Source: Escherichia coli O127:H6 str. E2348/69 (GTDB lineage Bacteria; Pseudomonadota; Gammaproteobacteria; Enterobacterales; Enterobacteriaceae). Taken from it: a DNA stretch of 64,000 bases. Under the pieces are notes generated by a model, which was not told the DNA's origin, ran no database searches, and was given only the letters and a program-made list of their open reading frames with translations. The translations under genes and the position numbers were made by a program. Each line of letters begins with the position of its first letter. The stretch's first letter is position 1. This document shows positions 23,128-24,051 of this stretch, piece by piece. Where the stretch lies: the NCBI RefSeq assembly GCF_000026545.1, contig NC_011601.1. The stretch is one strand, 5' to 3'.

Positions 23128-24051
23128 TTAATGTAAACAACTTATAATAACTTTTGCAATAAACTCAATGTCTGTAAGCGAACATTCAAAAGAGTGATTT
23201 TGGGATGAAATATAAACTCGTCCTTTAGGTAGTCGAGTTATCATTCTAAATGAATTCTCTCCATCAATATTTACTAGCCACTTACCATCATGTACATCTT
23301 TAAAACCCATTTCACATATTAATTCAGAGTCTTCGGTAGATACTACGAATGCATTTTTTAAATTGGAAGGTAGAAAGCATGGGTCAAATAAATATGAGCC
23401 ATCATTTATTAACTTGCCATTGATTAATACTTTTTTCACTAATGTTAAAGTATCTTTATTTTTTGCGTTTTTCATTTCTCCTGTACCAAATGAAATCCAT
23501 TCAATAGAATGGCCCGTTTCTATTGCACACTGCAAAACCCAGTCTGCAGGAAAAATGTCACGCATGTATCGTGTGGCTAATGTGCTTTTTGAAATACCTA
23601 GGTGATCAGCTAATGCTTGGCGCGTTTTGTAACCGTAAGCCTCGACAATTCGTTCTATTGTTGCCTTACCCCCTCGGTTAAAATTCATGAGTTTTTCATT
23701 ATCGAACTTTATAGTGGGAATGTATACTTCATTGCAAAGGCCATTAACGGCATGTTTTTCAGAATATTGCTCTGATGAAGGAGCAGTATCTGAACCAAGA
23801 ACTAACCATTCAATTGATGCTCCTGTTTCTATGGAACATATAACAACCCAATCTGCAGGAAAGGTATTACGTGCATATCTGTTGGCCATAGTACTTTGGG
23901 AAATACCTAGATGATTACATAATGCCTGTCGTGACTTGAAGCCATAGGCTAGGAGTATACGCTCAATAACTTTTTGCCCTCCACGATTCTGCATAACTAT
24001 TGCTTTCAGATCGTTTTTGATATGGCTAAATTTTAATTTTTGAGTTGACAT
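23128..24051 (-). CDS. CI-repressor paralog with two tandem N-terminal DNA-binding repeats and one C-terminal repressor-like domain
   Basis: Two ~60-aa repeats (IERILLAYGFKSRQALCNHLGIS...; IERIVEAYGYKTRQALADHLGISKSTLATRYMRD...) close to the N-terminus of the adjacent CI; C-terminal half homologous to CI C-terminal domain. Confidence 0.7.
   Translation of the reverse strand: MSTQKLKFSHIKNDLKAIVMQNRGGQKVIERILLAYGFKSRQALCNHLGISQSTMANRYARNTFPADWVVICSIETGASIEWLVLGSDTAPSSEQYSEKHAVNGLCNEVYIPTIKFDNEKLMNFNRGGKATIERIVEAYGYKTRQALADHLGISKSTLATRYMRDIFPADWVLQCAIETGHSIEWISFGTGEMKNAKNKDTLTLVKKVLINGKLINDGSYLFDPCFLPSNLKNAFVVSTEDSELICEMGFKDVHDGKWLVNIDGENSFRMITRLPKGRVYISSQNHSFECSLTDIEFIAKVIISCLH

What the first reader, a model, noticed from the sequence alone, without database searches (positions are those of the whole stretch)
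23128..24051. CI-repressor paralog with two tandem DNA-binding domains fused to one C-terminal domain
The 307-aa protein has two consecutive ~60-aa repeats that each closely resemble the N-terminal HTH domain of the adjacent CI (repeat 2 nearly identical over LGISKSTLATRYMRD.FPA.WV.QCA.ETG), then one CI-like C-terminal domain. A single-chain dimer of the operator-binding domain immediately downstream of the real repressor is unusual. It could act as a second immunity factor, a dominant-negative modulator of CI oligomerisation, or a sensor domain for the neighbouring NTPase.
Basis: seen in the sequence. Interest (0 to 1): 0.65.

Follow-up and report, generated by a model that had tools for sequence, protein, structure and literature searches.

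The report
Second, double-headed CI repressor in prophage
A P2/186-like prophage of E. coli E2348/69 carries, right behind its normal CI repressor gene, a second intact CI gene with two DNA-binding heads; this form is the sole repressor in many related phages, was captured here by recombination, and probably adds immunity against those relatives.

Summary
ORF 23128-24051(-) encodes 307 aa: a 21-aa leader, NTD1, a ~33-aa disordered linker, NTD2 and a 186-type CI C-terminal domain. It lies 50 bp downstream of the 189/191-aa CI.

It is not a local duplicate of that CI, and the architecture is not unique. Two-headed ("tandem-NTD") CI proteins form a large, apparently undescribed subfamily in Enterobacterales. 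In 47 of 80 sampled viral contigs, and in Klebsiella phage 4LV2017, such a protein is the only cI gene and sits about 88 bp from apl.

Here the gene is mosaic. The 5' half is 79% identical in nucleotides to tandem-type phages. The 3' half plus KAP NTPase and int is collinear with a single-CI phage (L186). It has lost its own operator and promoter region at a recombination joint 6-10 nt upstream of its ATG.

It therefore sits as promoterless cargo (cI-CI2-KAP-int) in the cI-int hotspot. This arrangement occurs in 16 of 5426 E. coli genomes, and the gene is always intact.

Best reading: a read-through-expressed second immunity repressor aimed at tandem-type relatives. It may also bind the resident operators, because its NTD2 recognition helix is identical to CI's. 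A neutral passenger role cannot be excluded. I rate it a new variant of a known kind, of moderate interest.

The parts
23128..24051 (-). CI2: 307-aa tandem-NTD 186-type CI repressor gene (the finding)
   Evidence: ORF. Pfam 2x PF07022 + PF16452. 186 CI structure 2FJR matched at E 1e-22 by sequence. Intact in all carriers examined.
23989..24051 (-). 21-aa N-terminal leader (MSTQKLKFSHIKNDLKAIVMQ), typical of the main tandem clade
   Evidence: Conserved as MS..K.TFRH.....K..IMQ in the alignment of 43 tandem CIs. AF2 predicts a helix at aa 12-20.
23779..23988 (-). NTD1, the extra HTH domain (aa 22-91); recognition helix ISQSTMANRYARN
   Evidence: HMM and Pfam hits. pLDDT 80-90. 86-87% identical to NTD1 of primary tandem CIs; NTD1s form their own clade.
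23680..23778 (-). Inter-domain linker (aa 92-124), predicted disordered and poorly conserved
   Evidence: pLDDT below 50 for aa 88-122. Variable in length and sequence in the alignment.
23470..23679 (-). NTD2 (aa 125-194); recognition helix ISKSTLATRYMRD identical to the resident CI and to 4LV2017 NTD2
   Evidence: pLDDT about 90.
23131..23469 (-). Hinge plus 186-type CI C-terminal (oligomerisation) domain
   Evidence: PF16452, E 2.4e-25. Model superposes on the 186 CI C-terminal domain 2FKD with TM 0.90 and rmsd 1.4 A over 108 columns. Closest C-terminal domains (65-68%) belong to single-NTD CIs of the P0033 group. 46% identical to the resident CI C-terminal domain.
24052..24101 (-). Recombination joint and cI-CI2 spacer. 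A 9-codon remnant (24057-24086, MLGKAFVVV*) of the small ORF that follows cI in related prophages ends 5 nt before the CI2 ATG.
   Evidence: Three-way alignment: the window follows 4LV2017 up to 6-10 nt upstream of the ATG and then follows the L002 type. BLASTN segment map. Sequence read directly. No terminator-like site in the spacer.
24102..24677 (-). Resident single-NTD cI (191 aa from GTG; 189 aa from ATG 24671 as in RefSeq)
   Evidence: NTD 78-80/80 identical to the common E. coli allele. The C-terminal-domain allele was seen only in CI2 carriers.
24678..24796 (.). Lysis-lysogeny switch region (cI | apl) with GTGA-core half-sites: AGTGAAC 24682-88, palindrome TGCGATCGCA 24711-20, GTTCACA 24731-37
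   Evidence: Sequence. Conserved blocks in about 20 variant switch sequences. Local cluster of TGYGAWC. Operator function is inferred, not shown.
21585..23102 (-). KAP-family P-loop NTPase, candidate anti-phage gene, third gene of the leftward operon
   Evidence: PADLOC PDC-S20, E 5e-78. Pfam KAP_NTPase in context tables. 68% identical homolog after a single-NTD cI in L186.
20446..21498 (-). P2/186-type integrase at the end of the leftward (lysogenic) gene string
   Evidence: PHROG 1 integrase. 96-97% nucleotide identity to 4LV2017 and L002 int.
24797..25560 (+). apl/cox-like gene (24797-25018) and cII (25045-25560), the first genes of the rightward lytic operon
   Evidence: PHROG 575 and PHROG 101.
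29962..30456 (+). SOS module: perfect LexA box CTGTAAATATAAACAG (29962-29977), 62-aa protein at the Tum position (30021-30209), DinI-like protein (30220-30456)
   Evidence: The 62-aa protein is 98% identical in a single-CI-only prophage and in the tandem-CI-only phage 4LV2017. A split tum, with the upstream half acting as antirepressor, is reported for PSP3 and Fels-2 (PMC3121763).

Best explanation
CI2 is a complete, intact member of a two-headed ('tandem-NTD') subclass of phage-186-type CI immunity repressors. In most related prophages such a protein is the primary, and only, repressor.

In this prophage it was captured by one recombination event between two related 186-like phages. The event joined the block [CI2-KAP NTPase-int] of a tandem-type phage to the block [5' stub of a small ORF-cI-switch-apl...] of a common single-CI E. 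coli prophage. The joint lies 6-10 nt upstream of the CI2 start codon, so CI2 lost its own operator and promoter region.

Inferred steps:
1. CI2 is transcribed only by read-through of the lysogenic transcript (pL/pE -> cI -> CI2 -> KAP -> int). It is translated after the 9-codon stub.
2. It folds into NTD1, a flexible linker, NTD2 and a C-terminal domain, and oligomerises through its own 186-type C-terminal domain.
3. It binds GTGA-core operators, so it acts as a second immunity determinant. It would repress the early lytic promoter of superinfecting tandem-type relatives, which use the same integrase and att type. This sits next to the KAP NTPase defence candidate in the cI-int cargo hotspot.
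4. Its NTD2 recognition helix is identical to that of the resident CI. It may therefore also occupy resident operators and add to repression.
5. The same SOS-controlled 62-aa Tum-position protein is found with both repressor classes. CI2 is therefore expected to be released on SOS induction together with CI, so the prophage stays inducible.
For: Identity and architecture (shown):
- Pairwise matches, Pfam domains, AF2 model and fold match to 186 CI.

Tandem CI as the sole primary repressor elsewhere (shown):
- 4LV2017 and E. coli, Salmonella and Klebsiella loci L003-L013.
- 47 of 80 IMG/VR loci have only a tandem cI about 88 bp from apl; 31 have only a single cI; 2 have the window arrangement.
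- 47-48 of the top 120 homolog clusters have two NTDs.

Capture by recombination (shown):
- Three-way alignment at the joint and segment map.
- Window 23484-24059 is about 79% identical to tandem types.
- Window 20347-23646 is collinear at 72.6% with L186 (cI-KAP-int).
- Window 24061-25098 is 91% identical to the L002 type.
- 77 of 80 loci with a 99%-identical apl lack CI2.

DNA-binding competence (inferred):
- Both recognition helices are the same as in primary tandem repressors. NTD1 reads SQSTMANRYAR and NTD2 reads SKSTLATRYMRD.

Intactness and spread:
- The gene is full length in 16 complete genomes. All but two (contig-end/partial) of the 15 listed cluster members are full length, and the cluster holds 98 sequence variants.
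- The cassette is under 1% diverged, yet it sits in backbones whose int differs by pS up to 0.32. It also occurs beside gnsB and on a plasmid record. The hybrid phage is therefore mobile.

Other points:
- No terminator-like site lies between cI and CI2.
- The same Tum-position protein occurs with both repressor classes.
- A cI-int cargo hotspot is already described in P2 relatives (PMC9122126).
Against: - No expression data exist. CI2 has no recognisable Shine-Dalgarno sequence and no promoter of its own.
- Selection cannot be measured. Only 0-4 differences separate CI2 alleles among carriers, so dN/dS has no power. The spread of 16 amino-acid variants over the domains is only weakly suggestive. 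A young neutral passenger would look the same.
- It is not established that tandem-type and single-type phages are heteroimmune. They share the NTD2-type recognition helix and the TGYGAWC/GTGA half-site family.
- None of 25 E. coli genomes with a tandem-only prophage also carries the common single-type cI. About 2.9 were expected, p about 0.05. Homoimmunity or mere competition for the same att site would each explain this.
- Tandem-type prophages detectable by megablast are rare in E. coli (about 25 of 5426 genomes). Selective pressure for immunity against them may be weak.
Confidence: 0.5

Rival explanations
1. Neutral passenger or relic. CI2 was dragged in with the KAP NTPase and int by the recombination event. 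It has no role in this prophage and has simply not yet decayed.
For: - The promoter and operator region is lost at the joint.
- The cassette is very young, with 0-4 differences among carriers, so intactness carries little weight.
- It is found in only 16 of 5426 genomes and 3 of 80 loci of the same immunity type.
- No closer 'sole-repressor' version of CI2 was found.
Against: - No frameshift or stop occurs in any complete-genome carrier. Full-length members listed for the cluster all keep 307 aa; the shorter ones are contig-end truncations.
- The cassette has spread into backbones with diverged int and into other insertion sites.
- A DNA-binding repressor whose helix is identical to the resident CI is unlikely to be phenotypically silent if it is expressed.
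Confidence: 0.3
2. Modulator of the resident switch. CI2 binds the resident operators through NTD2, or co-assembles with CI. It would act as a co-repressor or dominant-negative that changes lysogen stability or induction threshold, rather than providing immunity to other phages.
For: - The NTD2 recognition helix is identical to CI's.
- Half-sites of the same family (TGYGAWC) occur in both switch types.
- The resident cI carries a distinct C-terminal-domain allele that was seen only together with CI2.
Against: - The C-terminal domains are only 46% identical, so mixed oligomers are not expected, though this was not tested.
- The GTGA-N8-TCAC palindrome typical of tandem-type switches is absent from the whole 64-kb window.
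- The cI C-terminal-domain allele shows no conversion towards CI2. It differs from the common allele in 15-19 of 111 residues, too much to have arisen since the hybrid formed.
Confidence: 0.13
3. CI2 is the regulator or sensor partner of the KAP NTPase in a two-gene defence system.
For: - The genes are adjacent (25 bp apart) and always co-occur in the carriers.
- KAP matches the PADLOC candidate PDC-S20.
- The C-terminal two thirds of CI2 and KAP are collinear with cI-KAP in L186.
Against: - In L186 the partner is the phage's only cI, next to apl. The adjacency there is operon position, not a dedicated pair.
- Tandem CIs elsewhere are followed by unrelated cargo: DUF4747, GmrSD_N+HEPN, ASCH and others.
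- CI2 hits no PADLOC model.
Confidence: 0.05
4. Assembly or annotation artefact (a collapsed or duplicated cI).
For: Short-read assemblies do break inside this gene. 186-aa 'proteins' at contig ends are truncated CI2.
Against: - An identical arrangement is present in 16 complete genomes, including three E2348/69 assemblies.
- The three NTDs are only 58-65% identical to each other.
Confidence: 0.01

Closest known systems
Coliphage 186 CI immunity repressor (PDB 2FJR full length, 2FKD C-terminal domain; Pfam PF07022 + PF16452)
   Same: - Same two domain families, and the same fold of the C-terminal domain (TM 0.90 to 2FKD).
- Same genomic system: int, cI | apl, cII, fil, LexA-controlled tum-position gene.
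- GTGA-core half-sites resemble the 186 FL/FR/pB sites ATTCAC-N5-GTGAAT.
   Different: - It has an additional complete HTH domain plus a 21-aa leader and a ~33-aa disordered linker in front of a full single-type CI.
- Only 28% identical to 186 CI.
- Here it is not at the switch but second in the operon, without its own operators.
- Oligomeric state (the 186 CI wheel of seven dimers) was not tested.
Tandem-NTD CI of Klebsiella phage 4LV2017 (ARB15674.1, Elveevirus) and E. coli/Salmonella prophage relatives (P0002-P0058)
   Same: - Same architecture over the full length (61% identity over 98% of the protein).
- Identical recognition helices in both NTDs.
- Same leader.
- About 79-81% nucleotide identity over the first ~190 codons.
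   Different: - Those genes are the sole cI, about 88 bp from apl, with a conserved switch layout (TGYGAWC ... TGTGAWG-N4/5-GTCAC).
- CI2 has lost that region.
- CI2 has a different C-terminal-domain type (P0033-like).
- CI2 follows another cI.
Lambda cI-rexA-rexB, and cI-int defence hotspots of P2-related phages (Rousset et al. 2022, PMC9122126)
   Same: Accessory protective genes are co-transcribed with the immunity repressor in the lysogen. A variable cargo slot lies between cI and int.
   Different: Here part of the cargo is itself a second repressor of the same family, not an unrelated exclusion or abortive-infection gene.
Monomeric mycobacteriophage immunity repressor that uses two domains on an asymmetric site (PMC9283540)
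   Same: One polypeptide carries two DNA-contacting modules.
   Different: It is an unrelated fold and family. Its second domain is not a duplicated HTH, and it has no 186-type oligomerisation domain. This is a resemblance of principle only and was not tested here.

Membership tests
186-type CI repressor family (PF07022 + PF16452) | N-terminal Phage_CI_repr helix-turn-helix domain | tested here: met
   Two copies, E 1e-25 and 2.7e-27. Five-helix domains with pLDDT 80-93.
186-type CI repressor family (PF07022 + PF16452) | C-terminal Phage_CI_C beta domain with the 186 CI fold | tested here: met
   PF16452, E 2.4e-25. Foldseek to 2FKD: TM 0.90, rmsd 1.4 A. phmmer to 2FJR: E 1e-22.
186-type CI repressor family (PF07022 + PF16452) | [quoted passage not shown] | tested here: not met
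   CI2 is the second gene. The resident cI occupies that position. The feature is met by CI2's homologs in other phages.
186-type CI repressor family (PF07022 + PF16452) | Sequence-specific binding to operators at pR and repression of lytic transcription; higher-order oligomer | not testable with these tools
   Only indirect evidence: recognition helices identical to primary repressors, and candidate half-sites.
Tandem-NTD subclass of 186-type CI (defined here) | Two PF07022 domains in one chain, with NTD1 belonging to the NTD1 clade (helix ISQSTMANRYAR), an MS..K leader and a variable linker | tested here: met
   NTD1 is 86-87% identical to NTD1 of P0002, P0003 and P0005.
Tandem-NTD subclass of 186-type CI (defined here) | Cognate switch with TGYGAWC + TGTGAWG-N4/5-GTCAC about 88 bp from apl | tested here: not met
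   This region was replaced at the joint. GTGA-N8-TCAC is absent from the 64-kb window.
Known anti-phage defence systems (PADLOC-DB v2) | Match of CI2 to a defence-system protein model | tested here: not met
   0 families for CI2 and for CI. Only the neighbouring KAP NTPase matches (PDC-S20, E 5e-78).
LexA / lambda CI type self-cleaving (S24) repressors | Ser-Lys catalytic dyad and RecA-stimulated autocleavage | not tested
   Foldseek finds LexA C-terminal domains only as distant fold relatives (E 1e-5 and weaker). I did not examine catalytic residues. From my own recollection (not checked in a paper here), 186 CI is not RecA-cleaved; PMC3121763 states only that the antirepressor Tum binds its cognate repressor and prevents operator binding.

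The most novel reading that the evidence does not exclude
Tandem-NTD CI proteins may be a distinct way of reading operators. NTD1 and NTD2 of one chain could bind the two arms of a pseudo-palindrome (TGTGAWG-N4/5-GTCAC) intramolecularly, while the C-terminal domain builds the oligomer.

In this prophage such a repressor has been converted into portable 'immunity cargo'. It would be a repressor used as a defence gene against related temperate phages, carried with a KAP NTPase in the cI-int hotspot.

The two adjacent cI genes seen here also show the kind of intermediate from which an in-frame deletion could create, or remove, a tandem-NTD repressor. The 197-aa single CIs that begin MST.KYPSEIKINPNQGG look like tandem CIs that lost NTD1, and their switch lacks the TGTGAWG site.
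Probability: 0.3. Interest if true: 0.55.

Novelty: new variant of a known kind. Interest (0 to 1): 0.4.

Why it matters
Phage 186 CI is one of the best-studied alternatives to the lambda switch. Its wheel of seven dimers explains how it reads operators.

A natural, widespread class carrying a second DNA-binding head per subunit has apparently not been described. Six literature searches found no account of it, and databases simply call these proteins 'phage repressor protein CI'. Such a class would test how that architecture reads operators.

The E2348/69 hybrid is a ready-made natural experiment. It holds two repressors of one family, with one shared and one different recognition helix, in one lysogenic operon. 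Both are probably served by the same SOS antirepressor. It can show whether temperate phages widen their immunity range by capturing a rival's repressor, and how immunity specificities evolve by domain shuffling.

It also has a practical side. Prophage-encoded immunity and the adjacent KAP NTPase affect which phages can infect EPEC-type strains.

Tried and rejected
1. Local duplication of the adjacent cI. Rejected: the nearest relatives of each part lie in other phages.

2. Assembly artefact. Rejected. The 186-aa 'variants' are contig-end truncations.

3. dN/dS among carriers. No power: 0-4 differences. The domain distribution of 16 amino-acid variants is too small to interpret.

4. Operator inference.
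- 186 B-type patterns TTCAC-N3-8-GTGAA and GTGAA-N3-12-TTCAC: no match in the window.
- GTGA-N8-TCAC: no match.
- Generic repeat finding in the switch regions was uninformative.
- The consensus promoter scan was at chance level: 16 found against 16.3 expected.
- I could not place pR for the tandem-type switch with confidence.

5. Co-occurrence test for heteroimmunity. 0 of 25 tandem-only genomes also carry the common single-type cI, against about 2.9 expected. This is inconclusive, because both phage types use the same att site.

6. Gene conversion between CI2 and the resident cI C-terminal domain. Not seen.

7. KAP partnership. No support.

8. Literature. No description was found of tandem-NTD 186-type CI, of this E2348/69 prophage's two repressors, or of 4LV2017 regulation.

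9. NCBIfam has no model for CI, CI2 or the 62-aa protein.
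Full report
WHERE THE WINDOW COMES FROM

The window is 100% identical to the chromosome of enteropathogenic E. coli E2348/69 (O127:H6). The finding lies at the left end of a P2/186-like prophage inserted next to rcdA/ybjJ.

The leftward gene string is:
- cI, 24102-24677 (-)
- the 307-aa ORF, 23128-24051 (-)
- a KAP-family NTPase, 21585-23102 (-)
- int, 20446-21498 (-)

To the right, apl (24797-25018) and cII (25045-25560) start the lytic operon. The CI2-KAP segment is AT-rich, with GC 0.34 against 0.44-0.50 around it.

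- aa 122-290 of the ORF match the adjacent CI at 56% identity (E 9e-74), and aa 23-93 match the CI N-domain at 58% (E 3e-30).
- The two repeats are 65% identical to each other (E 5e-33).
- Pfam gives Phage_CI_repr twice (aa 28-89 and 130-194) and Phage_CI_C once (aa 207-302), all with E at or below 1e-25.
- An AlphaFold2 model built on 43 homologs has mean pLDDT 79 and shows three confident domains. A segment at aa 88-122 has pLDDT below 50. pTM is 0.44, so the relative domain arrangement is undefined.
- The C-terminal domain superposes on the 186 CI C-terminal domain (2FKD) with TM 0.90 and rmsd 1.4 A. The full-length 186 CI structure (2FJR) is the best hit by fold (E 3.6e-15) and by sequence (E 1e-22).
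- It is not an assembly artefact.

THE ARCHITECTURE IS NOT PECULIAR TO THIS LOCUS

The closest phage record, Klebsiella phage 4LV2017, has a 313-aa protein of the same architecture. It is 61% identical over 98% of the length and is annotated 'repressor protein CI'. It is that phage's only cI and sits about 88 bp from an apl homolog.

The same holds for E. coli, Salmonella and Klebsiella prophages L003-L013.

In a scan of viral contigs with the tandem alignment:
- 47 of 80 loci had a tandem cI as the sole cI next to apl.
- 31 had a single-NTD cI only.
- 2 had both, and these are the window's own arrangement.

Among the best 120 homolog clusters, 47-48 have two NTDs. Their hosts include Escherichia, Salmonella, Klebsiella, Enterobacter, Citrobacter, Kosakonia and Edwardsiella.

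Most NTD1 domains form a clade of their own, with an almost invariant helix ISQSTMANRYARD. NTD2 domains intermingle with the NTDs of single-type CIs. Two smaller groups (L144-150 and L149) have NTD1s of other origin and different switch layouts. The doubling therefore happened more than once.

Six literature searches found no description of this class. A phylogenetic survey of P2-like regulatory genes also does not mention it.

HOW THE GENE CAME TO BE HERE

A segment map and a three-way alignment show a mosaic:

| Window segment | Best relative | Identity |
|---|---|---|
| 24061-25098 (stub of a small ORF, cI, switch, apl, cII start) | common single-CI E. coli prophage type (L002) | 91% |
| 23484-24059 (leader, NTD1, linker, NTD2) | tandem-type phages | about 79% |
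| 20347-23646 (most of NTD2, C-terminal domain, KAP, int) | L186 | 72.6%, collinear |

In L186 a 186-aa single-NTD CI (P0033) is the only cI and is followed by a KAP homolog. P0033 is 72% identical to CI2 aa 122-307, and the KAP homolog is 68% identical to the window's.

The switch from 4LV2017-like to L002-like sequence occurs 6-10 nt upstream of the CI2 ATG. It falls inside what in L002 is a 63-aa ORF, of which nine codons (MLGKAFVVV*) remain at 24057-24086 and end 5 nt before the CI2 ATG.

CI2 has therefore lost the operator and promoter region that precedes every primary tandem cI.

The simplest history is one illegitimate recombination, for example a deletion in a tandem double lysogen. 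The parents would be a tandem-type phage carrying [CI2-KAP-int] and a single-type phage. That predicted parent was not found in the databases.

HOW COMMON AND HOW OLD

- The full arrangement occurs in 16 of 5426 complete E. coli genomes.
- It occurs in 3 of 80 viral contigs whose apl is at least 99% identical to the window's. The other 77 have only the 191-aa CI.
- CI2 alleles differ by 0-4 nucleotides among carriers, and all are intact.
- The int gene of one carrier differs by pS 0.32. One copy is on a plasmid record and one is next to gnsB.

The cassette is thus young but mobile. dN/dS has no power, so selection on CI2 in its present position is unproven.

WHAT BEARS ON FUNCTION

(a) DNA-binding helices. 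NTD1 (SQSTMANRYAR) is identical to NTD1 of primary tandem repressors. NTD2 (SKSTLATRYMRD) is identical both to their NTD2 and to the resident CI.

(b) Switch DNA.
- Tandem-type switches share a conserved layout: TGYGAWC, then 20 bp on TGTGAWG, then 12 bp on an inverted GTCAC/ATCAC.
- The window-type switch has AGTGAAC, the palindrome TGCGATCGCA and an inverted TGTGAAC at wider spacing.
- The half-site family is shared, but the arrangement is not. GTGA-N8-TCAC does not occur anywhere in the window.
- Operator assignments are inference only.

(c) Induction.
- A perfect LexA box lies at 29962-29977. It precedes a 62-aa protein and a DinI-like protein.
- This is the split-tum arrangement reported for PSP3 and Fels-2, where the upstream half is the antirepressor (PMC3121763).
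- The 62-aa protein is 98% identical in a single-CI-only prophage, in the tandem-only phage 4LV2017 and in the window.
- One antirepressor type therefore probably serves both repressor classes. If so, CI2 would not block induction. This is inference.

(d) C-terminal domains. The CI and CI2 domains are 46% identical, so separate oligomers seem more likely than mixed ones. This was not tested.

(e) The NTPase. KAP matches the PADLOC candidate PDC-S20, while CI2 matches no defence model. Tandem CIs elsewhere are followed by unrelated cargo: DUF4747, GmrSD_N+HEPN, ASCH and others. The CI2-KAP adjacency therefore reflects the cI-int cargo slot, not a dedicated pair. Such a slot is already noted for Vibrio P2 relatives (PMC9122126).

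VERDICT

What it is (high confidence): an intact tandem-NTD 186-type CI repressor gene, captured by recombination. It is now the promoterless second gene of the lysogenic operon, ahead of a KAP NTPase.

What it does (moderate confidence, about 0.5): it is expressed by read-through and serves as a second immunity determinant against tandem-type relatives, with possible cross-binding to the resident operators.

The main rival (about 0.3) is a young neutral passenger. Modulation of the resident switch (about 0.13) and partnership with KAP (about 0.05) are less supported.

A co-occurrence test did not settle whether the two phage types are heteroimmune. 0 of 25 tandem-only genomes also carry the common single-type cI, against about 2.9 expected, and the shared att site is a sufficient explanation.

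Novelty: a new variant of a known kind. The protein family and the regulatory system are known. The tandem-NTD subclass appears undescribed but is common, and the two-repressor operon is rare. Interest is moderate (0.4).

Noticed in passing
window 24102-24440 (C-terminal-domain part of the resident cI): The resident cI has an NTD 78-80/80 identical to the common E. coli allele, but its C-terminal domain is only 92-96/111 identical. This exact C-terminal-domain allele was seen only in CI2-KAP carriers. These are 3 of 80 IMG/VR loci, the 16 carrier genomes plus one 85.9% hit among 5426 E. coli genomes, and the P0107 context L188. There is no sign of gene conversion from CI2.
   Followed up: partly
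L186 (Logan ERR10686880) 2651-5097; window 20347-23646: A phage has the layout apl | single 186-aa CI (P0033, 72% identical to CI2 aa 122-307) - KAP NTPase (68% identical) - int. It is collinear with the window at 72.6% nucleotide identity. The NTD2/C-terminal-domain + KAP + int block is therefore an old linkage group to which NTD1 was added.
   Followed up: yes
L153, L167; proteins P0063, P0071, P0072: 197-aa single-NTD CIs begin MST.KYPSEIKINPNQGG. That is the tandem leader joined directly to the end of the tandem linker, as if NTD1 had been deleted in frame. Their switch keeps TGCGATCCTA and GTCACGATTA, but the TGTGAWG site is replaced by a GTTCCCATTTGGGTAC-type palindrome. This is a possible natural pointer to the NTD1 half-site.
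   Followed up: partly
L144-L150 and L149: These are independent tandem-NTD forms (293-297 aa with NTD1 helix FNVSASTMGTRWMRD; 326 aa with a single-type NTD1 helix) with different switch layouts. Doubling of the NTD happened more than once in this family.
   Followed up: partly
window 29962-30456: A perfect LexA box (CTGTAAATATAAACAG) precedes a 62-aa protein of PHROG 698 (function unknown) and a DinI-like protein, in a split-tum arrangement. The 62-aa protein is 98% identical in single-only, tandem-only and double-repressor phages.
   Followed up: partly
window 21585-23102: A 505-aa KAP-family P-loop NTPase matches the PADLOC candidate PDC-S20 (E 5e-78), with weaker matches to PifA and QatA models. 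It has no close homolog in the phage GenBank collection (best 31% identity).
   Followed up: partly
L003-L013, L186 (between cI and int): The cI-int interval is a variable cargo slot in this phage group. Contents seen: DUF4747 + a 201-aa membrane-like protein; GmrSD_N + HEPN RiboL-PSP; 384 aa + 359 aa + ASCH; 323 aa; KAP NTPase; or only a 63-aa small protein.
   Followed up: partly
window 31253-33049: To the right of the tum region, in a lower-GC stretch, lie ORFs of 191 aa and 324 aa. This is probably another cargo locus of the prophage. I did not analyse it.
   Followed up: no
L095 (NZ_JBRERE010000002.1, plasmid pE100181_149) and L098 (next to gnsB): The same cI-CI2-KAP-int cassette sits on a 150-kb plasmid record and at a different chromosomal site. 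The int differs by pS 0.32 in one case. The cassette therefore moves between backbones and insertion sites.
   Followed up: partly
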